From a virus (Duplodnaviria > Caudoviricetes): 64,000 bases of DNA. Below, in pieces: positions 7,349-31,348 of the stretch. A program made the translations under genes and the position numbers. Every line of letters starts with the position of its first letter. The first letter of the stretch is position 1. The DNA lies in the IMG/VR virus record IMGVR_UViG_3300014205_000183. The stretch is one strand, 5' to 3'. The notes beneath the pieces are model-generated. The model did no database searches. It was not told where the DNA came from and saw only the letters and a program-made list of their open reading frames with translations.

Positions 7349-8824
7349 TTATGAATTAATATTTTTAAATTCATCCACCAATTCATCACGCAAGGCATTG
7401 ATTGAACCGATGAATGTGTAAACCAAAAGCCCTTTTTCTTTTGGAAGTAAAGAGACAAGTTCCCTGATATTGCTTTCAAGTTGATTTACATTTGCTAAAA
7501 TTTCATCCGCCTTTTCACGTGCAGTATTTGCGGTAATTTTCTTTGTAGCCATGGTGCCATCCATAAAACTTGTTATCGGTTTATCACTTATTTCGTATGC
7601 TAATATATTATCACTTTTTAACTTAGCAGCTGCATAAGATATTTTGCCTTTTGTTTTTTGAAAGCTCTTAAAAAAGTCTGTCACAAATGCAGTTGAATTA
7701 GCTATTGTAAAATCCGCAATTTTCTTCGCAGACATGGTGCTACCCATAGAACTTGTTATTTGTTTTTTAATAATCTTCATAATCTCCGGCAAGGCAGCAT
7801 CAAAACCGCCAATTGCATTCTCACTGGAAGTTTGTAATAACTCTTTGAAAACCTTCTTAACCGCAGCCTCATCTCTGACTGGCTCATTATGAATCACAGT
7901 ATCAATAAGCTCTTGGTAAGAAACACCATCTATTAGATAGTCGTCTGCATTCCAAGGCATGATGGCTGCTTTTTTAGTTGCACCGGGATCAGCCAACAAA
8001 GGCATTACCGATACTTCAAGAAGAGACTGAAGCTCTGCTGCGGTATCTTTAAGAGGACTGAACAGCCCTTTAATTGTCTTCCACAAATCAGACAACCAAC
8101 TACCAATATCAGCTTGAATCTTTTTAGACTCTACTTTCTTCGGTAACTCTTCCTTAACCTGCTTACGTATAGTTTTAGCAGGTTCCCAACTTACGAGCTT
8201 ACGTTTAATTTCTTTCTTGGCAGTCTCAGTTTGTTTTACAGCCTGGTCAACTAAATCGGTAACACTCTTCACCAGCTCAGGTGCCAGCAGCTTATTCATT
8301 GCCTGGGTAAGTATTTCCAATCGTTCCTTATCGGAAACGGTGGTTGCTTTCACTTCATCGTAGATGGCATATACCCTCTGCTCATACTCCAACAGTATCT
8401 TCTTACTCTCCCCATAAGACTCAGAAACCTCCAGCAGCTCTCGCTGGATCTCGGCAGCAGCTCGCTCGCTCAAACCCTTTAGCTGTGTCTTGGATTCTTC
8501 GTACCCTTTTTCCGCTTTAAGAGCATTTATCTTTGCATCAGTTTCAGTGCGTAAATGGGTGAAGTCTTCATCCAATTTTTTAATCTTGTCTGTGGTTGTA
8601 GCTAATTGCTCCGCAATAGGCTTCATTCTGCGTAGGTCTCCCGCAGGCTTTAACGAGTACTGCTCAAGAGGTAAATCCTTTGGTTTGGTCTTATACTCTT
8701 GATAAGGAAGTAAAGGAGCGTCTTCCGTTACAGTAGTTTTAGGCGTGTTAGATATGGATTCTCCACTGTCAACAGCAATCGTGGTAAGCAGTGCTTTTTT
8801 AATTATTTGAATATCAGTGAGCAT
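7349..8824 (-). CDS. coiled-coil putative internal head protein
   Basis: 491 aa; KKIQA, KKAA, KKIA and KKITA linkers. Confidence 0.65.
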   Translation of the reverse strand: MLTDIQIIKKALLTTIAVDSGESISNTPKTTVTEDAPLLPYQEYKTKPKDLPLEQYSLKPAGDLRRMKPIAEQLATTTDKIKKLDEDFTHLRTETDAKINALKAEKGYEESKTQLKGLSERAAAEIQRELLEVSESYGESKKILLEYEQRVYAIYDEVKATTVSDKERLEILTQAMNKLLAPELVKSVTDLVDQAVKQTETAKKEIKRKLVSWEPAKTIRKQVKEELPKKVESKKIQADIGSWLSDLWKTIKGLFSPLKDTAAELQSLLEVSVMPLLADPGATKKAAIMPWNADDYLIDGVSYQELIDTVIHNEPVRDEAAVKKVFKELLQTSSENAIGGFDAALPEIMKIIKKQITSSMGSTMSAKKIADFTIANSTAFVTDFFKSFQKTKGKISYAAAKLKSDNILAYEISDKPITSFMDGTMATKKITANTAREKADEILANVNQLESNIRELVSLLPKEKGLLVYTFIGSINALRDELVDEFKNINS

Positions 8825-8839
8825 ACATTATATCCTTTC

Positions 8840-10771
8840 TTATTTACTCTCAAGAGAATGTGGGGCGATATTGCCATGATCACTCATGTGCCAAACACCA
8901 GGCCAGAACTGCTGAGACTCCATGCGGGCAAGGATGAAATCCTCGGCATCATCCATCGAATTAAATTCACCTAAGAATCTGCCACCAACTTCGGATACGG
9001 AAGTCTTACTTCCCAGGGAACCACTATCAGATATCATGTAGTCGCCGTCAACAGGTTCTTCTAGGAGGTCGTCTTCGATCTCAGGGTCATCCTCATATTC
9101 ATCGGCAGCGCGTTTCTTTTTTGCTGCATTCTTCCCCGCAGCCAATTTATCTGCCTTGGACATGGCTTCCTCAAGTGTAGCAGCGTGTCCCACAACTTCA
9201 GAAGCAGCATCTTCTATGTCAAACTTATCCGCAAACCCCTCTGGAAGAGGATCGATACGGTAGTTGGTTCGAGAGTTTAATAAGGTGCCGTCATCTTCTT
9301 CTAACCAATCTGAATTAGCGGCTTTGGCAAGTGCCTTCTTGCTGCCCTGCTTATCAGTAAGGTAGTCTGGGTCTTCTTCCAAGATACCTGAATGAAACTT
9401 TATATAATATTTACCATCAGTTGATTTTGCGCCATCACGAGAATCTTTAAACATTACATCAGGATAGTCAGATCCGTCCACATATGGCTCGATTACTTTA
9501 TCTGTCTTAGCATCTACAAGAGCCAGGCCGTAGCCCTGACCTTCCCAGTCAGCAATCAAATCAAATATTGATATAGGTTTTGCGGAAGTTGTTTTCTTAT
9601 TGGCGTATGTGCCTAGCAGTTGCTCTTTAAGCCATTCCCGCATGTCGTCGGCAGTGCTGAATGATTCTAGTTCAACACCATCCAAGTCTGTTACAAAGAA
9701 AGCCTCGGGGTCATCTTCAAATTTAGTATGGTGGAATAAAACATAATCCCCAAGCAGTAAACCCGTCTCGTCTTCCATCATCGCAAAGAGATCGCCATGA
9801 CCATCAAAAATATCGTCAATCATGCGTTCGGTATTAGCTGCTTGTTTTTTAGTCAACTTACCCGACTTTTTAACAGGTGCGAGACCATCTGCCAGACTCA
9901 TTGCACCATCCAGTGTATTGGCATGACCTATAAGTCCTTCCTCGTCATTCTTAATTTGAAAACGAGAGTTCCAAGGGGCATCATCATCTTCCTCAATCTT
10001 GAAATGCGTGCGAGTGTTCACCATCAAGTCAGCAGCTTCTGGCACCCATTCTGATACCAATGCAGTCACCTGCTTACCAGCTGTCTTACTCTTCGGCATA
10101 TTCTGTGTTACTTCATCCTGTGGAGTGACAATCTGCTTTGGTTTAATAGCCTCGCTGATATTGTCATTAAATGTAATAAGGATACCATCGGCTTCAACCT
10201 CTTTAGCAAGGTCTTGAAGAAGTTCCAGATCTTCCTGACGAACCAGGATATCAACACATACTCGGTCAGGGTCAATAGTATAACGGCGGACTTCCCGATA
10301 ACGAATATCAGCCTCAGCCAATACCGCAAGTACGCTGGTGTAGCTTTCGTTAGTCTGACCAGCTTTTGTTTCTATGGTTAAACGGTAGCCATAACCATCA
10401 TAGATAGTCGCCATCTTAGCAGCATTGCGTTTAAAGTCCTTACCGGAGAACTGGTCGTCACCAGTTCCCAGCCACTGGTAAACAGCATCAGATAGCTGCT
10501 TATTGGGTAGCTGCGCCACATGCAGTGCGGATTGCGGTTTGGTGAAGTCGTTACTCCAGGACATATACACATGAGTACTGTCAATAGGTTTGATGTAATA
10601 AGTGTCACCATCCATAGTAAATTCTTTTACTTCAGTAGGTGTGTTCTTATCAGACCTCTTCTCAAAGAAACCCTGTTGAAGTCTGGCCAACGCCGTAGGA
10701 GCTGATGCTGCTGCCAGAGTTCTTAAGTTTTCTGTTTCAAATTCACTGCCGGGGGTTCGCATACCACGCAT
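8840..10771 (-). CDS. modular acidic putative internal head polyprotein
   Basis: Acidic modules separated by KRNAA, KSKTAG, KKQAA, KKTTSA, AKAA and KKRAA; one module duplicated. Confidence 0.7.
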   Translation of the reverse strand: MRGMRTPGSEFETENLRTLAAASAPTALARLQQGFFEKRSDKNTPTEVKEFTMDGDTYYIKPIDSTHVYMSWSNDFTKPQSALHVAQLPNKQLSDAVYQWLGTGDDQFSGKDFKRNAAKMATIYDGYGYRLTIETKAGQTNESYTSVLAVLAEADIRYREVRRYTIDPDRVCVDILVRQEDLELLQDLAKEVEADGILITFNDNISEAIKPKQIVTPQDEVTQNMPKSKTAGKQVTALVSEWVPEAADLMVNTRTHFKIEEDDDAPWNSRFQIKNDEEGLIGHANTLDGAMSLADGLAPVKKSGKLTKKQAANTERMIDDIFDGHGDLFAMMEDETGLLLGDYVLFHHTKFEDDPEAFFVTDLDGVELESFSTADDMREWLKEQLLGTYANKKTTSAKPISIFDLIADWEGQGYGLALVDAKTDKVIEPYVDGSDYPDVMFKDSRDGAKSTDGKYYIKFHSGILEEDPDYLTDKQGSKKALAKAANSDWLEEDDGTLLNSRTNYRIDPLPEGFADKFDIEDAASEVVGHAATLEEAMSKADKLAAGKNAAKKKRAADEYEDDPEIEDDLLEEPVDGDYMISDSGSLGSKTSVSEVGGRFLGEFNSMDDAEDFILARMESQQFWPGVWHMSDHGNIAPHSLESK

Positions 10772-10785
10772 GAGCCGCTCCTTTT

Positions 10786-10968: not shown

Positions 10969-10970
10969 TA

Positions 10971-13877
10971 TTAACCTTTGTGCACTTTCTTGATTTTAGT
11001 ACCTTGATCACATGCTTCCAATTTCCAATTACGACCGCCGTGAATATCAAAATCGTAGTTGCCGAGTCGAGCGGCTTTCTTAGCTAAACGTCTACGAGTA
11101 GCTATGATTGTATCATCTTCCTTTTCACCTTCGACCATCATGCCGTTAGTGAGATCGGTAGCTGCAATTTTCTGAGCCAGCCGAGAAGCTGTTGTATTAG
11201 GTGCTCCTTGTAAATCAACAATAAGTTTTTCCAGAATCTTTTCCCGGATTTCTAAATACGTTTTTTCAGGATACCAGTTATCAAACGCAATTCTAGGATT
11301 TACAGAAGAGTCCCCATCATCGCCAAGACCGATCTTCCAATCTTCGAAATTGTAGAATATCCAACTATCTGATATGTCAGCTGGACCTTCTTGCCCTCCA
11401 GCAACACTTTCATCAGCCTCTGGGAATGTCAAATCCACATAACCAGAAATATGCTCCGCATCCTTCCAATTATTTGTTTGTATTGATATGTCATTCACGG
11501 TCATACCTGAAAACTCGCCAGCGATATCTTCGTCAGATTTATAGGGTCCGGTAGTCCCAACAGCCAATGCCCGGAGCTTAGCAGCTAATCGAGAAGACCG
11601 ACGCTTGATATCAACGACACTGTCGTCAATAATAGGGTCACCTTCAGTAACACCATTGGCGGCCAAGGCTTCTGTTATTTTTTTCTGTACTGCGGAGGTA
11701 GATTGCGAATATTTGCGTTTATTCACATGCATAACTCCGGCAGTATCTCTTAATGCCATGATGGTGGCATAATGCATCAATGCCCAACTCCCATCAGGCT
11801 GCTTCGAGATCTTTAGATTGGGTGTACCCCAGGTAGGTAGCTTATCTTTCGGAAAACTATCAGTCACAAAAAGGTTGATAACATCATCGTTAGTAGCTGC
11901 CTGTTTATCAAGACCGCTGAGTTTTTTAGCCAGCCGTGCAGCCTGTGTATCCAAATTACCAAGTTTCATATCCAACTCCCTTTCAGTTATTTGAGATTCT
12001 CCAACATCTGCTGCCTCTGGTTGTGTATTTAACATTTCATTATGTCCGCGAACAAATACACTAAACTTCCCTCCATTACCACTATATTTATTAAGTGGAC
12101 GGCCGTCAAAATCAGTAAAGCCTAGCTCAGTGAGTTTATTCTGCAATTCGGGTGTCCAACTCATAACCGGATTTTGAAGCCGCCAGGTTCCGCGCATACT
12201 GCCGTCCGCAATATATTTCACCCGGGCGTCTACCCCATTACTTAATAAAAACTCCTGCATCTTCTGATTCTCAGGTCTACGTTTAGCGGTGACAATGGCA
12301 GCGAGACGCTCGACACCCGTACTTTTAATGAGGTCACCAAAAATAGCAGAATACTTAGAACTGAAGATGGCAATATTGTCGGCGCGTCCGGCCTTTTCAG
12401 ATTCAGCTGGGTGACCGTCTTCGAGTGTCTTGATGTTGCCATCAGCCGCTGGAGTATTCGGGGCACTGGTCAAGCCCTTAGTAGGTGTGCGATCAACAGG
12501 CACAGTATTATTGTCTAGGGTGCCAAGTTCCGCGGCTGTTTTCTTTGTTGTCTTAACAAACTTACCTGCGCTAGTATACAAGGCGTCAAACTCTTTGAAA
12601 GACAACCTCACGAGTGATCCGAGCTTAGTGACCCGCAGTAAGGCACTTGGGCAACCCGCTTCTATATTCAAGGAAGTATATTTAGTAAGTTTCTTGTCAC
12701 CATCGATTTTACTGATAGACTCTTCATAGCGAACACCATAAGCCTGTGTCGGTTCGGCCTTGTCCAGATCCATATCCGCGGTAGGCCGCTTCTCCAAGAT
12801 GTACACTTTCTTTTCGAGGTCTACATCTTTAATGGTAATCATGTCTAATTCAGGAGCCTGCTTGGCATCTACCGGGACCAAGATGTCGCCTAAGCGATAT
12901 TTGGTTTCAAAATCATTAGGATGTCCGGCTGTTTTCTTTGCAGCTTCGACGCCAGGCTCTTGAGTATTGAAGTCACTCAACAAACTCCAGGCTGTGTCAC
13001 GCAAGCTATCACCAAAGCTCTCCAGGTATAGTCCGTGACTGCTGACACCCTTAGATTCCATAAAAGTCTCAACTTCGGTGTCATCTTCTGGAGATACACC
13101 ATGACCCTGGGAAACCAAAGCTAGATCAGACCAGACAGCCGGAAATTCCTTAACCAATTCTGCCACGGTGAGCTTGCCTTCCCACTTTTCATCAATGGCC
13201 GCGATAAGCTCCTGCCCTACTTTTTTTATTTCTTCATCAGGCATCTTGATGCCTGCGTCAGTTAACATGCTGGGAATGTACTCTGTAAGCTCCTGTTGTG
13301 ATGCGTTGTATCCTAGCTTCTCATTAACGCCTGCTAAATCAGACTCTTCACCCTCCTCATATGCACTCTCAAGCACAGAACCAACAGCATCTACAAATAG
13401 GATTTGACCCATATCATACGCGGTATCGCCAGTATCAGCGGCAGTCTTAACTGAGCTGTCTTTTTTAGATTCAAATTTACCACCCATGTTCTGGTAAACG
13501 GTATTCACGGTTGCCCATTCTTTATCTCCAAAGTCGGCCTTGGCTTTGCCGCTGCTCTTGGCCACGGCTTCCTCTGCCTTTTTCCACTTAGATTCATCAA
13601 CTTTACCCGGGGCATAAGTTTCAAATGCTGCCTTTTTTGGTTTTTTCTTTTTAGACTTATATGCCCAGGCATTATGCGCCGTGAGCTTATCTTTAGCAGC
13701 CAAGAAGCGTGCTTGCTTTTCTGTGAAGCCGTCTACCGCAGCTACAATTTGATCAAAATCAGCATACAGGCGTTTACCGCTTGTTAGCTTAATATTAGCC
13801 TTGGTTCCAACAACGGACAGTACACGCCCCTGTTGACCGTTCCACATCGTGACAAGTTGATTATGTTTAACTTCCAT
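10971..13877 (-). CDS. modular putative internal head polyprotein (includes a ChaB-like segment)
   Basis: 968 aa; KKAA, VKTAA, AKKTAG, KKTAA and DKQAA linkers; DE..W.KA....WA.V..VY..MGG ChaB-like helix pair. Confidence 0.7.
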   Translation of the reverse strand: MEVKHNQLVTMWNGQQGRVLSVVGTKANIKLTSGKRLYADFDQIVAAVDGFTEKQARFLAAKDKLTAHNAWAYKSKKKKPKKAAFETYAPGKVDESKWKKAEEAVAKSSGKAKADFGDKEWATVNTVYQNMGGKFESKKDSSVKTAADTGDTAYDMGQILFVDAVGSVLESAYEEGEESDLAGVNEKLGYNASQQELTEYIPSMLTDAGIKMPDEEIKKVGQELIAAIDEKWEGKLTVAELVKEFPAVWSDLALVSQGHGVSPEDDTEVETFMESKGVSSHGLYLESFGDSLRDTAWSLLSDFNTQEPGVEAAKKTAGHPNDFETKYRLGDILVPVDAKQAPELDMITIKDVDLEKKVYILEKRPTADMDLDKAEPTQAYGVRYEESISKIDGDKKLTKYTSLNIEAGCPSALLRVTKLGSLVRLSFKEFDALYTSAGKFVKTTKKTAAELGTLDNNTVPVDRTPTKGLTSAPNTPAADGNIKTLEDGHPAESEKAGRADNIAIFSSKYSAIFGDLIKSTGVERLAAIVTAKRRPENQKMQEFLLSNGVDARVKYIADGSMRGTWRLQNPVMSWTPELQNKLTELGFTDFDGRPLNKYSGNGGKFSVFVRGHNEMLNTQPEAADVGESQITERELDMKLGNLDTQAARLAKKLSGLDKQAATNDDVINLFVTDSFPKDKLPTWGTPNLKISKQPDGSWALMHYATIMALRDTAGVMHVNKRKYSQSTSAVQKKITEALAANGVTEGDPIIDDSVVDIKRRSSRLAAKLRALAVGTTGPYKSDEDIAGEFSGMTVNDISIQTNNWKDAEHISGYVDLTFPEADESVAGGQEGPADISDSWIFYNFEDWKIGLGDDGDSSVNPRIAFDNWYPEKTYLEIREKILEKLIVDLQGAPNTTASRLAQKIAATDLTNGMMVEGEKEDDTIIATRRRLAKKAARLGNYDFDIHGGRNWKLEACDQGTKIKKVHKG

Positions 13878-13912
13878 GACCGCCCTCGCTTAGTATATTT
13901 GTTTAAAAATAG

Positions 13913-15055
13913 TTACTTCTTATCTGTTGTTCCAAAGTCAAAATTCTTTAATTCATCCGCTAATTCCAAATCATTAGTAGCCCCACTGTCAATTCCACGT
14001 CTAGCCATCTCTTGCCGGAGAATAGGATTGATACGATGTTGCGGGTTGCGCAACAGCTCACTGCTCTGCTTACGACTACCTAATCTGTATTTTTTAATAG
14101 AATTAAGAGTGGTATTTAGGTAGCTACCTAATTTTTCTTTAGACCCGGACCACATCAAACGAGAACCTTTATGCACGGTAGACATACCAGTGGCTTCAAT
14201 AGCAGGTATATAAGTGCCCCCACCTAGTTGAGCAATTCGAGCTGTTAAGCCAGATGCCTTCTGCATAATGGATTCATCTTCATTTTTAGCAGATACGACG
14301 CTGCGAGCGAATGACCGGCGCTCTAAAGAAGCAGCTGTGGCTTCACCTGGAGCCTCTGCGGGAGTGGCTGCTTCACCTGCGGGTGCCGCGGCAGCATCAG
14401 GGCCTCCTGCAAGATTACCTTCGTCTACAATCTCTTCTTCGCCTGCCCCATCCATCAGGGCACCGCCACCCATATCACCACCAATATCGCCCCCGTCAGA
14501 GGGTTCAGCACCGGGTGCAAATGCAGGCTCACCTTCTGGTTCTGGCGGAGTCGCGTCTTCTTGTGCAGCGGCCTCGGCCTGTCCTTCCATCACGGTCTGC
14601 TCTATATTAGTATAGCTGTCCACAAGTAGGTCAAATCCTGACTCATATTGCGATTTAATCAAATCCACCTTATTTTCATCGAAGTCATCCGGTGCAGACC
14701 AGCCATTTTCGGTATCGTAAACATTGGTCACGAGTGCCTCTGATTCAGATATAGCCTTGTCACCCATAAACACTTTAAACTGCATTGTCAGCTGGCCATC
14801 CTTATTGGCCTCTTCTTTAACTAGAGAGAACTTACGCCCATCACGCTCCTCTTCCCGAAGCACCTCTGCCGCAGCACGGCGAACAAGTCCTGCCCGTCTC
14901 AACATATCATAAGGAACATCGTAACTTTCACCATTGTCTAAGGTAACAGCTGCATGAAGAGAACCTGTGCGAATAACGGTGCCTTTGCCAAGCAAATCAT
15001 CGCCATCAACCACCTCCACTACTTGCCCCGGATTATACTCTTCATAAGGTTTCAT
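13913..15055 (-). CDS. putative internal head protein with N-terminal SH3/KOW-like domain
   Basis: Y.PGQVVEV...G.GTV...V.LDNG pattern; RRAAA linker; acidic low-complexity middle. Confidence 0.6.
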   Translation of the reverse strand: MKPYEEYNPGQVVEVVDGDDLLGKGTVIRTGSLHAAVTLDNGESYDVPYDMLRRAGLVRRAAAEVLREEERDGRKFSLVKEEANKDGQLTMQFKVFMGDKAISESEALVTNVYDTENGWSAPDDFDENKVDLIKSQYESGFDLLVDSYTNIEQTVMEGQAEAAAQEDATPPEPEGEPAFAPGAEPSDGGDIGGDMGGGALMDGAGEEEIVDEGNLAGGPDAAAAPAGEAATPAEAPGEATAASLERRSFARSVVSAKNEDESIMQKASGLTARIAQLGGGTYIPAIEATGMSTVHKGSRLMWSGSKEKLGSYLNTTLNSIKKYRLGSRKQSSELLRNPQHRINPILRQEMARRGIDSGATNDLELADELKNFDFGTTDKK

Positions 15056-15056
15056 A

Positions 15057-23437: not shown

Positions 23438-23481
23438 CGATTAATCTCCTTCTGATACGATTTAACTATCCAGCACTATAA

Positions 23482-24405
23482 TTACTCTTGTGTTGTAAAT
23501 AAATTTGTTTGACCTTGTTCTTCTCGATACTGACGATCAGCTGCATAAATACTATCCATAAAATCGTCAGAAGGTAAAGAGTCAGAGTTGTTCAGCAGCA
23601 TGCCGTATTCAACTAAAAGGGAAAGCTCTTTTGCTGCTTGAGCAGTATCAGCTTTTGAATCACCTGTGGCTTCATACCCCAAAAGTATATACCCTTGGTC
23701 TTCAGACGGTGTGCCTGTTAAGGTAAGCAAAAAGGTATCAAAAGCATCTGAAGAATAAAGTACCCAGTCTTTATTGTCCATAGCGCCGTAACCACGGCCA
23801 ATACGTATCAACATTCCCTCATTGGTCTCAATATATTCTAAACCATCATTACCTTGGAATTCGCCACTCTGGTAAGGACCCACACCACCCGTGCCCAAGT
23901 AATCTCCCAGTTCAATACCAGCCGCCACAAGTGCTGCTTCTGTTTCTTCTTGCGAAAACTCATCATTCTCTTCCCGTAGTTGTGCATTAAGCTGTGTAAG
24001 CCAATCTGGAGATGATGGCTCTCCGCATAACAGTGTTAAAAGATTGTAGGTGTCAAACGAATTGTAAGCACTTACACTTGCGGGTTCTACAACACCATCT
24101 TGTGCACGGAATTCAACACTGGTACTATCTGGCTCATATGACCCTAGACCCGGTTTATAGTCGCTACTGAAACGACCAGAACCATCTTCAAAATCAATAT
24201 GCCCATCCAGGTCATCTATAGCGGCGACGGAATCTCCACCCCACAACGCCTTAACAACCGCTAGACCGTCAATAACTGTTTTAGCAACAGTCATGTCTGC
24301 TTCAGATAGAGCAGCTGTACGGCTCATGAACATACCTTCTCTAAGCGGCGCTGCCGCAGCAAGATAAGCTGCTCGGCTGGATATAATCTTATCATGTGTT
24401 TTCAT
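23482..24405 (-). CDS. acidic protein with basic leader ending in SRTAA
   Basis: GAGGA before MKTHDK (24405); highly acidic body. Confidence 0.65.
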   Translation of the reverse strand: MKTHDKIISSRAAYLAAAAPLREGMFMSRTAALSEADMTVAKTVIDGLAVVKALWGGDSVAAIDDLDGHIDFEDGSGRFSSDYKPGLGSYEPDSTSVEFRAQDGVVEPASVSAYNSFDTYNLLTLLCGEPSSPDWLTQLNAQLREENDEFSQEETEAALVAAGIELGDYLGTGGVGPYQSGEFQGNDGLEYIETNEGMLIRIGRGYGAMDNKDWVLYSSDAFDTFLLTLTGTPSEDQGYILLGYEATGDSKADTAQAAKELSLLVEYGMLLNNSDSLPSDDFMDSIYAADRQYREEQGQTNLFTTQE

Positions 24406-24422
24406 GCAATTCCTCAATTTAA

Positions 24423-24677
24423 TTAATAGTGTTGATTCGGTACTGCCTTCGGCTGAACACATAGCGCGGCTTTAATTACCCTAATAGCTGACTTAGCTTC
24501 AAGATTCTCATTCATAGCGTTCCACAAGATGCCGACTATTTTCAGCATGACATCCGGTGCCGCACCTATCGGGAGGTGTTCTGCAAGATAAGGTGTTTCC
24601 CGCAAAAACGTCCCCACCAGTTCTTGTAATTCAGATGACACTTGATTTTTATCAAGATCTGATTTGCGAGTCTGCAT
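24423..24677 (-). CDS. hypothetical protein
   Basis: 84-aa ORF coupled to the upstream stop; AAGGAG RBS. Confidence 0.55.
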   Translation of the reverse strand: MQTRKSDLDKNQVSSELQELVGTFLRETPYLAEHLPIGAAPDVMLKIVGILWNAMNENLEAKSAIRVIKAALCVQPKAVPNQHY

Positions 24678-27600
24678 TACCTAGCTCCTTTTTTCTTAGA
24701 AGCCTGTGCTGCGCCAGAAACTACGTCAAAGAATTCTGGGCTGTATTGCTCATCACGCTCGTCGCCGTCTTCGTCCTTAAATGTAATGATATATATCAGT
24801 TCACTGCCGTTATAGCTATGGTCGGATATCTCACCTTCTTTACCAATATCCTGGTTTCCCCATCCAAAATCAGATTGCGCATTAGGCTTTACTTTTGTAC
24901 CATTGGCTAAGACTTTGTAGGGACGCAGGGTTCTGAATTCACCCATAGGAGCGTCATGGTGACTGATTTTGACTTCGATAACACCACCAGGGAATTCCCG
25001 AGCGTCAAAAGAAAAATCCTGAGTACCCGGGAACATCTTGAAGAAATCATCGGAACCTTCGATCTTCATGACGGCATCGCCGGACCGCTGCTGCCAGCCC
25101 ATAGCCCGTCCTTCAACTTCCCAAAGACCTTCATTTTCGAATTGCTCATTAAGGCGAGAAAAAGCCTCATCAAGATCGATCTTCGTGTCATCAAGAGCTA
25201 TTTGGTATGCATCAATGTCATCTTCGGCCAACTCTTTGGCCTTGGCTTCAATGTCCTCGTCTGACGCCCCGGCTTCCATGTCATACTGTTCCGGGTCTTC
25301 TTTTATCAGTTCCTGAAAAAATTCGACTTGGCTCGTATATACGTCGGAATCACTGTATGAGGCAAGGAACTGGCCCTGGTCTTCAGCCGCCTGTTTCTTC
25401 TTACTTTTTAGCGGGCGTTTGGTGCTGACGGCCGTGCGATGACCATTCTTCGACGCAACCATGCTTGGCGCACCCGCGAAGGTACCCAAAATCATAGCAA
25501 CTGAATCGATAGTCGCGGCATCTGCACCTTGCAGCTCCGCTTCAACAGTACCATATACATCCTGCTCAATTCCCTCATCACCTGCAAGCATAGCCAAGAG
25601 GCCCGCGGCTGAATCAGCGGCCGTGGGGTCGTTACCGTACCGGCTATCCCGCATTAGGATATTCAAAATCCGACCATATAAGGCATCTTTTGAATTAGCA
25701 CGTTTATTGGCGGAACCCGCACGTGCTACCGTTGGCCGAAGTGACCTCCGGGTTGCTTGCTTACGGGAAGTCTTGGCGGCTTCTTTATTTGTGGTGTCCT
25801 CACCAAAAGCCTCTAAGACAAAGTTGTAATTGGTTGGTGCACCATGATTCTCAGCAAAAGTACCCCAATTGCCCTGACTGATAGCATCTATGGCACCTTC
25901 AGCAAGATCAACTGCTCGTGCAGCTTTCAATGCTTGTTCCCGCGAATCAACCTGTAAACCAAATTCGGCTAGACCCTCTTCATTACTGAAGTTAATCACT
26001 GTACCAAATTTACCAAATGTCTTAACAGCAACATCCTCTGTCATATCAGGGGATGCCTCTAGCAGAATAATGCCAAGAGTGTACGGTGCAGCAGCAGTCT
26101 TCTTGGAGGCCTCAACACCAACAATCGGAACATAGCTATCGGGGTTAGCCGCACGGTCTGCTTTCAGCATATCCACTATGCCCTTGATTGATTTCTCACC
26201 TCGCAAGGTATTCATGCGAGGCTTACCATTCATCAAAATGTTTGCTTTCTCTTCTTCTGGCAAATCACTGTGAATGATGGCCGACACACCCATGATTGAT
26301 TTATTCCCATTCGTGGTTGGTAGCTTATTTTGCCCACCCATGATATCAGCGAGGATACCAGCAGTCTTCTTACTGGACTCAACTTTCACCCCTGCGGTGT
26401 CCACGTCAAGTATTTGCGCAACGGCCATAGCGTCATCCCGCATAGCCAAGAATCCCTCTCTACCTTCGGGTGTAGATGTATCCCACGTACCATCCATACC
26501 CTCGGTACAAGAATTTTTAAGGCCATTGATTAAACTTAAAGCGGTCTCATCAGTTTCAGCAAATTTCTCAATGCCTTCTAATAAGGTATACATATCTAAA
26601 AAACCATCTCGACCTGCATCTGAAGAAGTATCCCACTCGCCTGTGTAACCCTCAACACAGGAGTTGATGAAGGCTACTAAGTCAGACTTGAGGTCAGATG
26701 TTCCCTCCGCAGCAGTTTTCACCGCTTTGCGCGTCTTTAAACCCGCGTCTGTCTGAAAATCAGGTTCATCTCCTTCGGTGGAGTCATCAGAATCCCAACC
26801 GTAAAACAATTCATAAGAGCCATCATTTTCATTATGTCCAAAATAAAAGCTACCATTATCATAAGGTGCAGCAACTTTCTCGCTGCGGTTCAGCTGGTCT
26901 GCCAGTTTGTTCGCAACACTATCAATAGTATCCCATGAAAGTTCGTCCCCGATAATCAAGTCTTCATCTTCCGTTCCTAATGCGGAAGGAGACTTAGCAG
27001 TGCTGCCCGCAGCCTTAAGTTCGGCAACCAACTCATCAAAAATACCAAAAAACTTGGCTACCTGGACTGGCTGGTAAATGCCATTAGCACCACTAGATAT
27101 GGTATCAACTATAATTTCATAACGACCCGGTTCCCGCTCCAGGTCAGATAAGTTGTAAGACTTTATCTGCTTGAGTGTCTCTTCGCCTAAACCTGGTTTG
27201 TACATTTTAGAAATATCAACATCGTAAGCAGCTTTCACAGCCTTAGAGCTGCGGGTTTTGCTTTGGCCGCCTTTGGGTTTAAAACCGGCGGAGCTGATGG
27301 CGTTGATAAGTTCGGAAGCATCTACATCTTCGCCTTTTACCGTGATCTCACCACCAAGTTCAGGATTACGTTCGCCAATCAGTATATAATGACTGGTTTC
27401 AGAACCTTTCTCATATATGAATGTAGTTGGTGCAACATCCTCATCTTTTGGTAAATCAGATTTCTTCGGATTTTGAATCTCTTCTGTAGACCCATCTGCC
27501 AAAGTCAACACCAAAGTGCATTCCTCAAACACATGATCTGCTGGGAGTTGAAAATAATCTCCAGGAGTGGCGGAGAGAGTATCGCCGTCGGGAGAGATTA

Positions 27601-30600
27601 ACTTAACTCGGCGATATTTCTTGGTCTCCGGTTTGTCTGTTCGGGTTCCGCTGGTGAACACCTCGTCAATCCAGAATTTGTCAACACCAGGGACATTCAG
27701 GTACACCCCTTGATATTTGTCAAATTCCTTGTGTGTCGCGCCGGTGAATCCGGCGTCGGTCAGTTGTTCAACAACTTTGTCGTACATCTCAATATCATAA
27801 TCCTGATCGGCTTCGCCCGTGGCTTTCACATCTTTACCAGCCTTGATTATGCGACGGTCAAACTTGGCTTTTAAAGCCCGGAGTTTAGAGCCATGTTTAT
27901 TAGGATCACGTTCGCCCGGAGCATGAAACATATCAAGCTGCCCCTGGTCTTCACGAACTTGGTGCATGTCAACGCCTGCATCTTCTGGACTACCGATGGC
28001 GCCATCGTTGCTCTTTACGTCCTCAATAAAGCTATCGCGCTCAAGTCCCTGGGGAACCATGAACGCCAGGTTAGAAAAAATACCGGCCAAACTGTCAGCC
28101 GTGCCGTTAAGGCGGCCTTCGTTGCTGTAGTATGGAATATCGCTATCCTGCTCAGCCCAGAAGCCAAAGCTACTACCGTCATCGAAATTCACGGTAAACG
28201 TGATGCTGCCACTGATAAGTTCCATAAAGGACTGACCAAATCTATCAAAGGCCGCATCTTCCGACTCATTGTTATCCTGGTTAAAGAAATAAGTAAGACC
28301 ATAGTTACCACGGACATCGCCACCCTGGTGAACCAGCGCATAACCGTACCACAGTTCATCGTTGCCCTGACAAACACCAAATTGACAAGTAGGTCCAAGG
28401 TACGACCAGTTATAAGTGTTTTCGCTCTTGCCCCTGATTTCTGGCCAGCCGTTACTGGCCACCAGATTGAGTTTCTTGGCCTTGGCCGAACCTTCTTTAA
28501 AGTCCGCTTGCTGGGCAATCATGTTCTCAAACTCTTTTTTAGCCTCTTCCCAGTTGTCCAGGTCAAGGGTTATTCCGGCTTCACTGAGAGTCATAATCTG
28601 GGATGTGCTTTCCACGTGCTCGGCCCAGGTTCCAAGGTCTTCGCCATCGGCCTTTACTTTCTTGGAACTATGTACATATTTACTATCCAAGTTGGCCAGG
28701 AACTCATCAACCTTAGATTCCAGTGTTGCCATGTCGTTAAATGCAAACTCTTCTTCCTTGATAATATTCTCACCGGATTCATGGTGGTATCCAAAGTCTG
28801 TATTCACGGCGTATCGCATGTACAGTGAGTGTGTGTCTGGATTATCACTGTGACCATTGCCCGGAGCATAATACTGAGCTTTTATGATGAACATAACAGT
28901 ATCTTCGCCGTCGCCGCGCTCCATCTCTGACAACTCTTCTGCTTCAGAGGAGTACCCCGCGTTATACAACTCATTGTAGTAAATGTTCTCTACCCCTAGT
29001 TTTTCTACAAGCTCAGGATATTTTTTAATAAATTCTTCCTTAGCATATGTGTAGTTTGACTCCTGGGCTGCGTCAATATCCTTCTGTGCTTCCACATTAG
29101 GAACAGTTGTTCCTGACCCTGTAAGATATTCTACAGTAGTAAAACCATCAACCTGCACACCACCATCTGTAAACGGAATAAAACCATCACGACTTGCGTG
29201 CTCTATTTCTTTAGTCTCGACCTCACCAGCGTTAGTAAGTTCATAGTCGTCCGCGATCGTGTTGAATGCATCAAGCAGTTTCTCATCCAGCATATCCTTG
29301 ATGGCATCATAAGAAACATCACTATCACCGGTATCGTCAGCGGTTTCAGAATCATCAGCCGCTTTGACAGCCTTTGACCCTGTCTTGACTTCATCGTTGC
29401 CAGAAGTAAAGATGGTCTCACCTTTCTCGAGCAACTCTTCCATGGCGTTGCTTACTGCGTAGTTCGGATACCACCAAACCTTACCCTCGGAGGAGATATT
29501 TCCTTCATCATCCGGCAGCATATCATATCCAATAATAGGAGCGGAAGTCAGGGCACCAATGTCCTCCGGTTGTACCATACCCCAAGAACTGTTAGCAAAA
29601 ATGTCTTCAAGTAAATCGGGCATGATATAATTCTCATCCTTGCTTTTTTCAAGCATGGCCGGAAGTTCTTCACGACCAAGGTCTGTAACCTTTATGGAGA
29701 GATCACCGTTAGGTAGTTCTGTAAGAGATGCGTATGTACCTTCTTCAGATAATGCAGCAGTTTTCTTAGAAGCACTAACTTCATTTTTCTGGTCTGCATC
29801 AGCACCGATGGGTGTCTGTCCAGCAAGCGGGAGAATCTCAGCTGTTTTCGCAGCGGCTGTCTTATTATTATCGCAGGCCTCAACAACAGCATTAACAGTA
29901 GCTTCATCAGCATTCTGTAATAAAGACCCAACTAAATCAGTCAGCTCCTGTTCCCCATCCCATTCCTCAAGAGCGTATCCGATTTCAGCAGCTATATTGC
30001 CGCTAGTGCCTTGATCTTTGTAATAGGAATCCTTATTAAGGATAGTCTTGATGGTGTCAACAACGGGCAGCTGCGAGGCGGTTTTCTTATCTGTATCAAC
30101 TTCCGCATCTGCATCTTTAACCATATCAGAGGCTGTAACACCTCTCAGTAGATTGTTTACATCACGGTCTGCATGAACGGCACTGCCGACGCGCTGCTTA
30201 GCGGCTTTGTGACGGAACATGTCATCCTCAGCCAGACTACCGAGGTGTGCCTGAAGGCCTTCGGCGGACATGGGGAACTTCTGACCTGTGCTGATGATGA
30301 ATTCTTTTCCAATATCAATTGACCCGTTAACGAGTGTTAACGGAATAGTGATGTTGCTTGTACGTTTGTAGCTTGGGCTAGCAACTCGACAATTCCACTC
30401 CACAGAACCTGCTGTAGCCTGTCCCTCGCCATCAATTGCACTAACAGTAACCTTGTTAAGACTGGAGCGGTCCAAATAAGCAGCACCTTTCACTGTCTTC
30501 ATAAAATCACTGATAACACCTGCGGAGGCGTTCAAAATACTGTCATAGTTTGCAAGGTTTCCCAGTACAGGAGCCTGGTCTTTAACGACGCCAACCGGGT

Positions 30601-31348
30601 TGTAGCTCGGAATATCAGTTGGCTGGTAAAGTAGCTCGTCTGGTTCATGGAAGTCATCTTCAGTTGCTATGGATTCACGATCAATGGCAAATTGCATACG
30701 TTCAACATCATCTGATGAATATACTGTGCCATCTTTTGCTTTAAGTGTGCCGTTTGGGTAGGCTTCATCAACAATGATACTTACTACTTCATGCGAGAGC
30801 GGACAGATACCATGCAGAACTTGACCTTTAGCAAACTCCTGTGGCTCGTACATCTGCGGTTCAACGAAAGATGGACTGAGTTCCATAATCTCATTATTCA
30901 TGGGGATGAGCATCATGTAATCACCACCATACATATTCTGAGGCATAGCATATCGCACGCCTGCCGCCATTTTTTCAACATCCATAGAAGCCACACCTAC
31001 TAAACCAGCGGCAACCACATCCTTGGTTCCCGTAATAGTATGCACCACTTTATCCGTGTTATCCTTGGAAGCCCTTATTTCAAGTTTGAAATGCTGACCG
31101 AGTTTCTCATGGATAGCTGCTCGTACTTCTGCACCAGAGCTGGGGAATTGATGTAGATTAAGACCATCAACAGCTGCTTCAACTTCTTGGAGGTTGTGTG
31201 CTATCTTTCTGGTTGATCCACATTTGACTTCAAATTTACCAGATTTAACAGCCCACACCTGTAAACCATTATCGTTATAAAGTTCAGTGTATGCAGCGGA
31301 TGCCCGGCGAATATTTTCGGCCTGGACTTTAAGTACGGACTTTGCCAT
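24677..31348 (-). CDS. giant (~2220 aa) modular acidic putative internal head polyprotein
   Basis: More than 10 basic linkers (DKKTAS, ASKKTAA, KAVKAA, SSKKVKAD, KAVKTAA, SSKKTAG, ASKKTAAA, KKQAA) between acidic domains; AAGGAG before MAKSVLK. Confidence 0.75.
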   Translation of the reverse strand: MAKSVLKVQAENIRRASAAYTELYNDNGLQVWAVKSGKFEVKCGSTRKIAHNLQEVEAAVDGLNLHQFPSSGAEVRAAIHEKLGQHFKLEIRASKDNTDKVVHTITGTKDVVAAGLVGVASMDVEKMAAGVRYAMPQNMYGGDYMMLIPMNNEIMELSPSFVEPQMYEPQEFAKGQVLHGICPLSHEVVSIIVDEAYPNGTLKAKDGTVYSSDDVERMQFAIDRESIATEDDFHEPDELLYQPTDIPSYNPVGVVKDQAPVLGNLANYDSILNASAGVISDFMKTVKGAAYLDRSSLNKVTVSAIDGEGQATAGSVEWNCRVASPSYKRTSNITIPLTLVNGSIDIGKEFIISTGQKFPMSAEGLQAHLGSLAEDDMFRHKAAKQRVGSAVHADRDVNNLLRGVTASDMVKDADAEVDTDKKTASQLPVVDTIKTILNKDSYYKDQGTSGNIAAEIGYALEEWDGEQELTDLVGSLLQNADEATVNAVVEACDNNKTAAAKTAEILPLAGQTPIGADADQKNEVSASKKTAALSEEGTYASLTELPNGDLSIKVTDLGREELPAMLEKSKDENYIMPDLLEDIFANSSWGMVQPEDIGALTSAPIIGYDMLPDDEGNISSEGKVWWYPNYAVSNAMEELLEKGETIFTSGNDEVKTGSKAVKAADDSETADDTGDSDVSYDAIKDMLDEKLLDAFNTIADDYELTNAGEVETKEIEHASRDGFIPFTDGGVQVDGFTTVEYLTGSGTTVPNVEAQKDIDAAQESNYTYAKEEFIKKYPELVEKLGVENIYYNELYNAGYSSEAEELSEMERGDGEDTVMFIIKAQYYAPGNGHSDNPDTHSLYMRYAVNTDFGYHHESGENIIKEEEFAFNDMATLESKVDEFLANLDSKYVHSSKKVKADGEDLGTWAEHVESTSQIMTLSEAGITLDLDNWEEAKKEFENMIAQQADFKEGSAKAKKLNLVASNGWPEIRGKSENTYNWSYLGPTCQFGVCQGNDELWYGYALVHQGGDVRGNYGLTYFFNQDNNESEDAAFDRFGQSFMELISGSITFTVNFDDGSSFGFWAEQDSDIPYYSNEGRLNGTADSLAGIFSNLAFMVPQGLERDSFIEDVKSNDGAIGSPEDAGVDMHQVREDQGQLDMFHAPGERDPNKHGSKLRALKAKFDRRIIKAGKDVKATGEADQDYDIEMYDKVVEQLTDAGFTGATHKEFDKYQGVYLNVPGVDKFWIDEVFTSGTRTDKPETKKYRRVKLISPDGDTLSATPGDYFQLPADHVFEECTLVLTLADGSTEEIQNPKKSDLPKDEDVAPTTFIYEKGSETSHYILIGERNPELGGEITVKGEDVDASELINAISSAGFKPKGGQSKTRSSKAVKAAYDVDISKMYKPGLGEETLKQIKSYNLSDLEREPGRYEIIVDTISSGANGIYQPVQVAKFFGIFDELVAELKAAGSTAKSPSALGTEDEDLIIGDELSWDTIDSVANKLADQLNRSEKVAAPYDNGSFYFGHNENDGSYELFYGWDSDDSTEGDEPDFQTDAGLKTRKAVKTAAEGTSDLKSDLVAFINSCVEGYTGEWDTSSDAGRDGFLDMYTLLEGIEKFAETDETALSLINGLKNSCTEGMDGTWDTSTPEGREGFLAMRDDAMAVAQILDVDTAGVKVESSKKTAGILADIMGGQNKLPTTNGNKSIMGVSAIIHSDLPEEEKANILMNGKPRMNTLRGEKSIKGIVDMLKADRAANPDSYVPIVGVEASKKTAAAPYTLGIILLEASPDMTEDVAVKTFGKFGTVINFSNEEGLAEFGLQVDSREQALKAARAVDLAEGAIDAISQGNWGTFAENHGAPTNYNFVLEAFGEDTTNKEAAKTSRKQATRRSLRPTVARAGSANKRANSKDALYGRILNILMRDSRYGNDPTAADSAAGLLAMLAGDEGIEQDVYGTVEAELQGADAATIDSVAMILGTFAGAPSMVASKNGHRTAVSTKRPLKSKKKQAAEDQGQFLASYSDSDVYTSQVEFFQELIKEDPEQYDMEAGASDEDIEAKAKELAEDDIDAYQIALDDTKIDLDEAFSRLNEQFENEGLWEVEGRAMGWQQRSGDAVMKIEGSDDFFKMFPGTQDFSFDAREFPGGVIEVKISHHDAPMGEFRTLRPYKVLANGTKVKPNAQSDFGWGNQDIGKEGEISDHSYNGSELIYIITFKDEDGDERDEQYSPEFFDVVSGAAQASKKKGAR

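What the first reader, a model, noticed from the sequence alone, without database searches (positions are those of the whole stretch)
7349..31348. Polyprotein cargo system: acidic modules joined by a shared S-K-K-T-A linker
Seen: at least six large ORFs (2220, 968, 886, 695, 643 and 491 aa) consist of acidic domains separated by short basic linkers of the form [A/S/G]-S-K-K-x-A-[A/G/D/S], e.g. VEASKKTAAA, VESSKKTAG, VSASKKTAA, GASKKTAT, EAAKKTAG, HSSKKVKAD, KAVKTAA, KKQAA. The same K/R-x-A motif occurs in the scaffold (KKKTAA), protease (KKKTAA, KQAA), portal leader (RKLAA) and capsid leader (RREA). I did not see it in this form in the enzyme genes beyond 33 kb. Known: T4 gp21 and phiKZ gp175 prohead proteases cut many internal head proteins at short motifs, there ending in Glu. 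Inference: an Ala-specific maturation code lets the phage package concatenated effectors and release dozens of small acidic proteins (DNA-mimic or anti-defence-like) for injection.
Basis: partly seen in the sequence, partly recalled or inferred. Interest (0 to 1): 0.85.

Follow-up and report, generated by a model that had tools for sequence, protein, structure and literature searches.

The report
Phage head polyproteins with Lys-Lys-Thr-Ala cut-sites
A large uncultured phage related to Bacillus phage G strings small acidic protein modules into giant head proteins. The modules are joined by one short peptide ([A/S]-S-K-K-T-A, then a small residue) that also marks its capsid protease, scaffold, portal and capsid protein, so it is very probably the head protease's cutting signal, although no cut has been measured.

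Summary
K-[T/Q]-A-[small] occurs 27 times in 9,624 residues of head-module proteins. It occurs 6 times in 28,617 residues elsewhere on the contig (Fisher 1e-11) and never in the 41 ORFs at 33-64 kb. KKTA occurs 10 times against 0.33 expected.

The extended logo is [A/G/S]-[S/A]-K-K-[T/Q]-A then A/G/S/T. Outside the four positions used to select sites, information lies upstream, which fits cutting after Ala.

The same motif is the top enriched word in most of 12 homologous giant proteins from other metagenomes. A looser K-x-A-[A/G/S] is enriched in head-internal proteins of the distant relatives Tunturi_5 and phage G.

Homology blocks between relatives begin at the motif (49% against 11% by chance). 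Several modules equal whole stand-alone small proteins that start exactly at the predicted cut. One relative carries a stand-alone copy with a 13-residue leader ending in ASKKTA.

The motif flanks the protease domain (T4 gp21-like fold), splits the scaffold, and sits in the portal and capsid-protein N-termini.

Best reading: an Ala-P1 maturation code of the prohead protease cuts modular head-internal polyproteins into about 26-35 mostly acidic pieces.

Packaging, cutting, injection and any anti-defence role are inferred, not shown. This scan has noted the same theme, with other codes, on other phage DNA.

Verdict: a new variant of a known kind.

The parts
24677..31348 (-). Giant 2223-aa acidic polyprotein. 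It has a conserved N-terminal domain of about 410 aa, then variable modules. Eight strict sites: 30074-30085, 29852-29863, 29753-29764, 26708-26719, 26357-26368, 26090-26101, 25751-25762, 25385-25396. Four further K-x-V-K-A variant sites lie at residues 668, 905, 1181 and 1378, counted from the TTG start.
23482..24462 (-). 326-aa very acidic protein (pI 4.07) inside the block, with no motif. Whether it belongs to the system is uncertain.
20777..23437 (-). 886-aa polyprotein. The N-terminal part (19-170) and C-terminal part (760-885) are conserved and the middle is variable. Six strict sites: 22928-22939, 22577-22588, 22103-22114, 21839-21850, 21563-21574, 20870-20881. Modules 287-346, 539-615 and 172-268 have stand-alone homologues.
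18689..20776 (-). 695-aa protein. The N-terminal part matches phrog_36119 and shows weak nucleotidyltransferase hits. One strict site (19496-19507) separates it from an acidic C-terminal half (pI 4.05).
15490..18642 (-). Portal protein, interrupted by an intein. Conserved K-L-A-A lies at 18463-18474 and K-K-A-A-S at 15904-15918. Both are kept in relatives, and the first also at the same place in phage G gp14.
15057..15518 (-). 153-aa protein with sites at 15408-15419 and 15252-15263.
13913..15055 (-). 380-aa acidic protein with no motif. The N- and C-terminal parts are conserved and the middle is low-complexity and variable.
10971..13877 (-). 968-aa polyprotein with four strict sites: 13437-13448, 12924-12935, 12531-12542, 11895-11906. 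The segment 318-448 between two sites is one homology block in three relatives.
8840..10771 (-). 643-aa polyprotein with strict sites at 10076-10087 and 9836-9847. About 320 aa are inserted, relative to the closest relative's 245-aa orthologue, between K-T-A-G (residue 231) and K-R-A-A (about residue 556).
7349..8824 (-). It has only a loose site (T-K-K-A-A at residue 284). The orthologue in relative L005 carries Pfam LPD11 flanked by two sites.
6287..6646 (-). 119-aa protein whose first 8 residues end in K-T-A (6620-6631). Orthologues start M-S-K-M-A-S or M-S-K-K-A-S, which looks like a mini-leader plus a site.
4843..6168 (-). Prohead protease, 441 aa. It has a T4 gp21-like domain (about residues 8-270), with His90 and Ser205 invariant in the family. 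Sites lie before the domain (6070-6081) and after it, in a disordered linker (5269-5280, followed by K-V-A-Y). The C-terminal part is an acidic Tudor/KOW-like barrel.
2539..4803 (-). Scaffold-like 754-aa protein. One strict site (3475-3486), kept in relatives, splits a basic N-terminal half (pI 10) from the C-terminal half. There are many loose K-x-A sites.
1024..1926 (-). Major capsid protein (36% identical to phage G gp27). The N-terminal 40 residues or so carry conserved [K/R]-x-A sites, the last being K-I-A then A at 1801-1812.

Best explanation
The peptide [A/G/S]-[S/A]-K-K-[T/Q]-A, followed by A/G/S/T, is the recognition and cutting site of this phage's own prohead protease (window 4843-6168). 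The cut is inferred to fall after the Ala: P1 = Ala, P3 and P4 = Lys.

Proposed sequence of events:
1. The protease trims itself on both sides of its catalytic domain.
2. It splits the scaffold.
3. It removes short N-terminal leaders from the capsid protein, the portal and small head proteins.
4. It cuts five large acidic head-internal proteins (2223, 968, 886, 695 and 643 aa) at 21 strict sites, plus about 5-10 variant sites, into about 26-35 separate pieces.

Each large protein has conserved end domains, which probably get it into the prohead. Between them is a variable middle made of small autonomous modules that are swapped between related phages together with their upstream cut site.

The freed modules probably stay in the DNA-filled head and enter the host with the DNA.

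Shown here (computationally): the motif, its distribution, its conservation, and its match to module borders.

Inferred: cutting, packaging, delivery, and what the modules do.
For: 1. Enrichment and restriction to the head module.

2. Logo from 143 unique sites in the family. Outside the four selected positions, information lies at the three positions upstream. This is the pattern of a protease reading P6 to P1'.

3. Synonymous codon variation at the sites.

4. Twelve homologues of the giant protein (44-82% identical in the N-terminal domain). In 9 of them SKKT, KKTA or ASKK is the top enriched 4-mer; in P0202, KKTA occurs 10 times against 0.06 expected.

5. Homology-block starts lie within -10 to +15 residues of a site in 49% of cases, against 11% for random sites (0 of 2000 permutations). 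Block ends: 32% against 13%. The same holds in the window proteins: 30% against 9%, P 0.003.

6. Stand-alone homologues with matching ends:
- 59-62-aa proteins P0067, P0098, P0099 and P0117 align from their residue 2 to residue 287-289 of the 886-aa protein, directly after A-A-K-K-T-A.
- Module 539-615 matches P0149, P0105 and P0131.
- The module of the giant protein after S-A-S-K-K-T-A equals stand-alone proteins of 112-134 aa.
- In relative L009 it is a separate 132-aa gene whose 13-residue leader ends in A-S-K-K-T-A.

7. An insertion of about 320 aa in the 643-aa protein lies exactly between two sites.

8. Protease. Sites are conserved at about residue 30 and just after the domain in all close relatives, and both align with phage G gp19 sites. 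The site after the domain lies in a disordered linker, residues 277-336. The fold match to T4 gp21 (5jbl) has Z 7.3 and rmsd 4.3 over 135 residues. The protease also matches phrog_18299, head maturation protease.

9. The lineage-wide, looser K-x-A-[AGS] is enriched in Tunturi_5 gp328 (12 against 2.2) and gp332 (8 against 1.7), and in phage G gp7 (8 against 1.5) and gp19 (4 against 0.5). It is at or near expectation in their tail and other proteins.

10. Pfam-defined borders. LPD11 in a relative's orthologue is flanked by two sites. The Nuc_deoxyri_tr2 domain of the neighbouring polyvalent protein starts 3 residues after K-T-A.

11. Precedent. T4, phiKZ, 201phi2-1 and SPN3US proteases cut many head proteins and their own C-terminus at a P3-x-P1 motif (PMC5694885, PMC10052503).
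Against: - There is no proteomic or biochemical evidence for this phage or any relative. Neither cutting nor presence in virions has been measured.
- All characterised gp21-type phage proteases cut after Glu, not Ala (PMC5694885).
- The fold match of the protease is only moderate (Z 7.3, within the range that the tool calls common), and Pfam finds nothing.
- Some homology-block borders do not lie at strict sites.
- One strict site (K-Q-A-A at residue 853 of the 886-aa protein) lies inside a conserved C-terminal domain.
- Relative L003/L010 has few sites in some orthologues.
- L009's copy of the polyvalent protein has none.
- The exact scissile bond is inferred from the logo only.
- Acidic cargo beside packed DNA is unlike the basic T4 internal proteins.
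Confidence: 0.65

Rival explanations
1. The motif is cut by the prohead protease, but the large acidic proteins are assembly-core or scaffold components. They are chopped so that the pieces can leave the prohead and make room for DNA, as with T4 gp22, gp67 and gp68. They would not be cargo kept for delivery.
For: - The scaffold and protease carry the same sites.
- T4 core proteins are cut into short fragments that leave the head, and acidic peptides derive from them (PMC5694885).
- The proteins sit between the terminase, portal and protease genes.
- Conserved end domains with a variable middle could be spacer mass.
Against: - The pieces are folded autonomous domains of 60-430 aa with widespread stand-alone homologues. 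There are 1138 hits to the 886-aa protein, and most of the 150 listed match the 60-aa module. This is not the short peptide product expected of scaffold clearance.
- Module content is swapped freely between close relatives, which is typical of accessory cargo.
- An orthologue carries LPD11, a domain of polyvalent effector proteins.
Confidence: 0.15
2. The motif is not cut. It is a conserved flexible basic spacer, for instance a DNA-contacting Lys-rich linker or a capsid-targeting tag, and the proteins work as intact multidomain (polyvalent) proteins.
For: - The Lys-rich, Ala-rich linkers resemble histone-like tails (my own knowledge).
- Polyvalent proteins are often thought to act, or at least to be transferred, as whole chains (PMC5512222).
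- No cut has been observed.
Against: - The Thr/Gln-Ala pair is kept strictly, and P1' is always small, which a spacer does not need.
- The motif is present on both flanks of the protease domain, at the extreme N-terminus of small proteins (M-S-K-K-A-S) and in the capsid-protein leader.
- A stand-alone module has a 13-residue leader ending in the motif. This is the layout of T4 capsid-targeting leaders, which are cut.
Confidence: 0.1
3. The motif is a cut site, but it is read by another enzyme: a host protease or a second phage protease, possibly only after injection.
For: - The Ala-P1 specificity differs from every studied gp21-type phage protease (PMC5694885).
- Earlier notes of this scan proposed a second protease for a different code in another phage (unchecked).
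Against: - The motif flanks the prohead protease domain itself at conserved positions across very distant relatives. It also marks the scaffold, portal and capsid protein, which are the classical substrates of the prohead protease.
- No other protease gene was seen in the head module.
- Herpesvirus assemblin, which has the same fold class, cuts Ala-Ser bonds (my own knowledge), so Ala-P1 is within the family's reach.
Confidence: 0.07

Closest known systems
Proteolytic head maturation by T4 gp21 and the giant-phage proteases phiKZ gp175, 201phi2-1 and SPN3US gp245
   Same: - One prohead protease with the gp21/assemblin fold.
- A short P3-x-P1 motif shared by the capsid protein, portal, scaffold, internal or ejection proteins, and the protease's own C-terminus.
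- Several cuts per protein.
- C-terminal self-trimming (PMC5694885, PMC10052503).
   Different: - P1 is Ala with Lys at P3 and P4, where all those proteases have Glu.
- The substrates here are long chains of swappable autonomous modules with a site at each joint. In the known cases the substrates are mostly proteins that lose an N-terminal propeptide.
- Nothing here has been measured.
T4 internal proteins (IPI-III, Alt) with a capsid-targeting leader removed by gp21
   Same: A short N-terminal leader ending in the protease motif precedes a small cargo protein. This is seen in L009's 132-aa gene and in the 107-119-aa protein family next to the protease gene.
   Different: - T4 cargo proteins are separate genes and basic.
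- Here most modules are concatenated and acidic, and conserved end domains rather than a leader probably mediate loading.
Polyvalent proteins of phages and conjugative elements (Iyer et al. 2017, PMC5512222)
   Same: - Large late-gene proteins made of many unrelated domains, predicted to be packed in the head.
- An orthologue carries LPD11.
- The neighbouring 1109-aa protein carries ART-PolyVal, Nuc_deoxyri_tr2 and Acb1/2H domains.
   Different: - That paper proposes self-processing by an in-built zincin-like MPTase domain. No such domain is found here, and the joints instead carry the prohead protease's motif.
- Most modules here match no named family.
Herpesvirus assemblin maturation and release sites (consensus hydrophobic-x-Ala, then Ser; from my own knowledge, not checked in a paper here)
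   Same: Same protease fold class as gp21. The cut falls after Ala and before a small residue, and specificity sits at P3/P4 to P1'.
   Different: - Eukaryotic virus.
- P3/P4 are hydrophobic, not Lys.
- Only the protease-scaffold precursors are substrates; there is no cargo polyprotein.
Polyproteins of RNA viruses cut by a viral protease at a repeated site
   Same: It works alike: one chain, one protease, one short code at every joint.
   Different: - Unrelated proteases.
- The purpose there is gene expression, not capsid loading.
- In a dsDNA phage, separate genes would be possible.

Membership tests
gp21/assemblin-type prohead protease maturation system | A prohead protease gene of the gp21/assemblin fold in the head module, with conserved Ser and His | tested here: met
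   - phrog_18299 'head maturation protease', E 4e-8.
- VIA match to T4 gp21 5jbl_A: Z 7.3, rmsd 4.3, 135 of 165 residues aligned, model range 8-270. This is moderate only.
- His90 and Ser205 are invariant in 14 family members.
- The gene lies between the head-internal proteins and the scaffold and capsid-protein genes.
gp21/assemblin-type prohead protease maturation system | One short motif shared by several head proteins, including the scaffold, the capsid protein or portal, and the protease's own C-terminal flank | tested here: met
gp21/assemblin-type prohead protease maturation system | Cut after Glu (P1 = Glu), as in T4, phiKZ, 201phi2-1 and SPN3US | tested here: not met
   The motif ends in Ala. 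Glu is not enriched at any motif position. This is a feature of the studied phage members rather than of the fold class.
gp21/assemblin-type prohead protease maturation system | Cleavage demonstrated in virions or in vitro | not testable with these tools
   No proteome exists for this phage. The phage G and Tunturi_5 papers read here report no cut sites.
Polyvalent proteins (Iyer et al. 2017) | Many unrelated autonomous domains in one polypeptide, encoded among phage late or structural genes | tested here: met
   Modules have separate stand-alone homologues. They are shuffled between relatives. The context is the head module.
Polyvalent proteins (Iyer et al. 2017) | Presence of the family's signature domains (LPD domains, ART-PolyVal, MPTase-PolyVal and others) | tested here: inconclusive
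   The six window proteins have no Pfam hit that reaches a family's cut-off. LPD11 is present in the L005 orthologue of the 491-aa protein, and ART-PolyVal in the neighbouring 1109-aa protein.
Polyvalent proteins (Iyer et al. 2017) | Self-processing by an in-built MPTase (zincin-like) peptidase domain | tested here: not met
   No MPTase or other peptidase family hit in any of the polyproteins or their 12 homologues.
T4-type internal proteins with a capsid-targeting leader | A short N-terminal leader that ends in the protease motif, on a small separate protein | tested here: met
   L009:996-1394 has a 13-residue leader ending in A-S-K-K-T-A. Window 6287-6646 and its orthologues have a site within the first 3-8 residues. 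This holds for these small proteins only, not for the polyproteins.
T4-type internal proteins with a capsid-targeting leader | Basic, DNA-associated small proteins | tested here: not met
   Most predicted fragments have pI 4.0-5.3.

The most novel reading that the evidence does not exclude
The prohead protease's cut site acts as a universal adaptor. Any small protein that acquires the 7-residue tag, or is inserted between two tags in a carrier protein with the right end domains, is loaded into the capsid, released as a free protein and delivered to the next host. On this reading, about 25 kb (a tenth) of this genome would be a freely recombining 'cargo bay' of 25-35 early-acting proteins. The phage G lineage would then have evolved an Ala-specific version of the gp21 protease to run it.
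Probability: 0.35. Interest if true: 0.8.

Novelty: new variant of a known kind. Interest (0 to 1): 0.62.

Why it matters
If the code is real, it matters in four ways.

1. It gives the first cleavage rule for the head protease of the phage G lineage of jumbo phages, and the rule is unlike the Glu rule of every studied gp21-type phage protease.

2. It allows the mature virion proteome of these mostly uncultured phages to be predicted from sequence alone.

3. It explains how polyvalent or cargo proteins that lack their own peptidase can be separated into working units.

4. It points to a large set of small proteins of unknown function that also occur as widespread stand-alone phage genes. These are candidates for the earliest-acting phage factors, because they would arrive ready-made with the DNA.

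It also suggests a natural, rule-based way to load chosen proteins into large capsids.

Tried and rejected
- Pfam and PHROGs on all head proteins and on the 12 giant-protein homologues gave almost nothing. There were only DUFs, a Rubrerythrin-like stretch in two homologues, and phrog_24588 for the 60-aa module.
- A scan of viral contigs with the protease found no relative.
- Foldseek of the protease model against PDB found only the C-terminal Tudor/KOW-like barrel. The gp21 match came only from the wide VIA search. A profile of the protease family found no solved structure by sequence.
- The model of the giant protein's N-terminal domain gave only weak matches: NTF2/cystatin-like for residues 264-372 (Z at most 7.6), and phage G gp7 at Foldseek probability 0.92 but with a low TM-score. 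These are not used as evidence.
- Two mixed alignments (A2, A3), meant for folding several modules of the 886-aa protein at once, were misaligned and were dropped. As a result, predicted disorder at the linkers was examined only for the protease linker and the first joint of the giant protein. A simple count of hydrophobic residues around the sites showed no clear dip beyond the motif itself.
- Single-linkage clustering of the segments lumped everything together and was replaced by the block-boundary test.
- A more distant protease clade (about 33% identity, locus L013) showed K/R-x-A-[A/S] sites in its protease, scaffold and capsid protein, but no sharply enriched word. A test for co-variation between protease and motif was therefore not possible. 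A second distant contig could not be fetched.
- Whole-record searches of the relatives' contigs were not possible.
- The DNA-repeat (recombination joint) explanation was rejected on codon variation.
- The literature searches found no description of a K-x-A code or of these proteins.

Full report
**Setting.** The window belongs to an uncultured phage. The contig held here is 132 kb, and the gene catalogue lists its proteins on a contig of 236,752 bases. All genes in the region lie on the minus strand.

Read in the direction of transcription, the head module runs as follows:
- terminase (32820-34937)
- two small proteins
- a giant protein (24677-31348)
- proteins of 326, 886 and 695 aa
- portal (15490-18642, with an intein)
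- proteins of 153, 380, 968, 643 and 491 aa
- small proteins
- protease (4843-6168)
- scaffold-like protein (2539-4803)
- a 140-aa protein
- major capsid protein (1024-1926)

These assignments rest. The capsid protein is 36% identical to gp27 of Bacillus phage G and 31% identical to that of Tunturiibacter phage Tunturi_5, so the phage is a distant member of the phage G lineage of jumbo phages.

- An unbiased word count over the 17 head-module proteins (9,624 aa) puts KTA first among tripeptides seen more than twice: 21 observed against 4.5 expected.
- KTAA (11 against 0.46, P 3e-12) and KKTA (10 against 0.33) come first among tetrapeptides.
- K[TQ]A[AGSTD] occurs 27 times in the head module and 6 times in the other 28,617 aa of the contig (Fisher 1.4e-11). 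It does not occur in the 41 ORFs at 33-64 kb.
- Codons at the ten KKTA sites differ synonymously: four Thr codons, three Ala codons and both Lys codons are used. The repeat is therefore kept at the protein level.
- The carrier proteins are unusually acidic, at pI 4.1-5.4 against a proteome median near 7.

Small corrections: the 491-aa protein has no strict site, and the 326-aa and 380-aa acidic proteins in the block have none.

**Shape of the motif.** Pooling 143 distinct sites from the window and its relatives gives [A/G/S]-[S/A]-K-K-[T/Q]-A followed by A/G/S/T. Outside the four positions used to select the sites, information is found only at the three positions upstream. That asymmetry is what a protease reading P6 to P1' leaves behind, and it places the scissile bond after Ala. 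The form P3-x-P1 (Lys-x-Ala) parallels Leu/Ile-x-Glu of T4 and Ser/Ala/Gly-x-Glu of the phiKZ group (PMC5694885). The giant protein also has a second variant, K-x-V-K-A, at four further joints.

**It is a family-wide code.**
- The protease has 34 close homologues in metagenomes, and I fetched five of their contigs.
- Twelve homologues of the giant protein share its first 410 residues or so (44-82% identity) and then diverge.
- In nine of the twelve, SKKT, KKTA or ASKK is the most enriched 4-mer. In one, KKTA occurs 10 times against 0.06 expected.
- In the far more distant cultured phages the looser K-x-A-[A/G/S] is enriched in head-internal proteins. Examples are Tunturi_5 gp328 (12 against 2.2) and gp332 (8 against 1.7), and phage G gp7 (8 against 1.5) and protease gp19 (4 against 0.5).
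- In their tail sheath, fibre and unrelated proteins it stays at or near expectation.

**The motif marks the classical substrates of a prohead protease.**
- In the protease itself a site sits at about residue 30. It is conserved in all close relatives and aligned with K-T-A-A of phage G gp19.
- A second site sits just after the catalytic domain. Where relatives have lost K-T-A they keep K-x-A-Y.
- In the predicted structure that second site lies in a disordered stretch (residues 277-336), between the catalytic domain and a small C-terminal barrel.
- The catalytic domain matches T4 gp21 (5jbl: Z 7.3, rmsd 4.3, 135 residues aligned). This is a moderate match, backed by a PHROG protease hit and by invariant His90 and Ser205.
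- C-terminal self-trimming is a conserved trait of these proteases (PMC5694885).
- The scaffold-like protein has one conserved strict site. The portal has conserved sites near residue 57 (also in phage G gp14 at residue 55) and near its C-terminal tail.
- The capsid protein's first 40 residues or so carry three conserved sites, the last being K-I-A then A-N-L-A-S-P.

**The motif sits at module borders.**
- Each large protein has conserved ends and a variable middle.
- In the 968-aa protein, the segment between two sites (318-448) is one homology block in three relatives, with block ends within 1-5 residues of the sites.
- The 643-aa protein differs from its 245-aa orthologue in the closest relative by about 320 residues, inserted exactly between K-T-A-G and K-R-A-A.
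- Across the 13 giant proteins, 49% of homology-block starts lie within -10 to +15 residues of a site, against 11% for randomly placed sites (0 of 2000 permutations). For block ends the figures are 32% against 13%.
- Blocks tend to start just before the cut, so a module travels together with its upstream site.
- A search of 1.8 billion representative proteins with the 886-aa protein returned stand-alone proteins for each module. Whole proteins of 59-62 aa align from their residue 2 to residues 287-289, directly after A-A-K-K-T-A.
- Other stand-alone proteins match residues 539-615, 172-268, 22-106 and 740-885.
- The module that follows S-A-S-K-K-T-A in the giant protein equals stand-alone proteins of 112-134 aa. 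In relative L009 it is a separate gene with a 13-residue leader ending in A-S-K-K-T-A. That is the layout of the T4 internal proteins.
- Two Pfam-defined borders agree as well. LPD11 in a relative's orthologue is flanked by two sites. In the neighbouring 1109-aa polyvalent protein, K-T-A lies three residues before the start of a nucleoside deoxyribosyltransferase-like domain.

**Mechanism proposed.** The large proteins enter the prohead through their conserved end domains. The protease then cuts after Ala at each tag, giving about 26 pieces from strict sites and up to about 35 with variant sites. It also trims itself, the scaffold, the portal and the capsid protein. Because the pieces are folded domains of 60-430 aa, they should be too large to leave a closed shell. 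They therefore probably stay with the DNA and enter the next host. Everything after 'the motif marks module borders and protease substrates' is inference.

**Rivals.**
- The proteins may be assembly-core mass that is cleared after cutting. The autonomous, widely distributed and freely swapped modules argue against this.
- The linker may be uncut. The strict Thr/Gln-Ala pair, the always-small next residue, the sites flanking the protease domain and the leader-type copies all argue against this.
- Another protease may read the tag. The conserved sites on the prohead protease's own flanks, and on the scaffold, portal and capsid protein, argue against this.

**Comparison with what is known.**
- The system works like head maturation in T4 and the phiKZ-type phages, and like RNA-virus polyproteins.
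- It differs from the former in the Ala-P1/Lys-P3,P4 rule and in the concatenated, swappable cargo.
- It fits the description of polyvalent proteins (PMC5512222), but lacks the built-in MPTase peptidase that those authors proposed for processing.
- From my own knowledge, herpesvirus assemblin, which has the same fold class, cuts Ala-Ser bonds, so Ala at P1 has a precedent in the wider family.
- I found no paper describing this code or these proteins.
- Unpublished notes of this scan describe the same theme, with other motifs, in other phage genomes. I did not test those.

**Limits.**
- No cut, packaging or delivery has been measured.
- The protease fold match is moderate.
- Predicted disorder was checked at only two joints.

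Noticed in passing
window 16420-17466 (-), inside the portal gene 15490-18642: The portal protein is 1050 aa against 640-644 aa in relatives. Residues 393-741 are an insertion with weak LAGLIDADG and intein-type hits, so this is an intein in the portal gene. The relative on L008 also has intein hits in its portal.
   Followed up: partly
window 4924-5106 (-), residues 355-415 of the protease: After its self-cut site the protease carries an acidic C-terminal domain with a Tudor/KOW/SH3-like barrel (Z up to 8.8 to many such domains). This domain is absent from the shorter protease clade of about 300 aa. It may be the part that targets the enzyme to the prohead.
   Followed up: partly
window 6782-7045 (-): An 87-aa protein is conserved in all five relatives at the same spot between the head genes. 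Two orthologues carry a precomputed Pfam WYL hit. A possible ligand-sensing regulator fragment inside a structural module is unexpected.
   Followed up: no
window 18689-20776 (-), residues 1-220: The N-terminal part of the 695-aa protein matches phrog_36119 strongly (E 4e-43) and nucleotidyltransferase (Pol-beta type) families weakly. It is the only module in the block with an enzyme-like hint.
   Followed up: no
window 1926-1956 and 149-1009 (-): The mechanical ORF starts are probably too far upstream. The capsid-protein orthologues start at the ATG at 1926, not the TTG at 1956. The 286-aa ORF at 149-1009 matches orthologues of 203-234 aa only from about residue 80 onwards.
   Followed up: partly
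P0206 and P0207 (homologues of the giant protein), residues 426-508; L011:3-4352: Two relatives carry a Rubrerythrin-like (ferritin-type) module directly after the conserved N-terminal domain of the giant protein. This is an example of a recognisable module in the cargo position.
   Followed up: no
G000 C1:25741-29070 (window -6259 to -2930), locus L012:5741-9070 (-): The neighbouring 1109-aa polyvalent protein (three ART-PolyVal stretches, Nuc_deoxyri_tr2, Acb1/2H) carries two strict sites, K-K-Q-A-A at residue 413 and K-T-A-A at residue 822. The same code may therefore reach beyond the head module. L009's orthologue has none.
   Followed up: partly
giant protein residues 264-372 (window about 30233-30559, -): The third subdomain of the conserved N-terminal domain has an NTF2/cystatin-like fold. 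The weak matches include VirB8/TraM-type proteins of conjugation systems (Z 6.5-7.5, within the noise range).
   Followed up: partly
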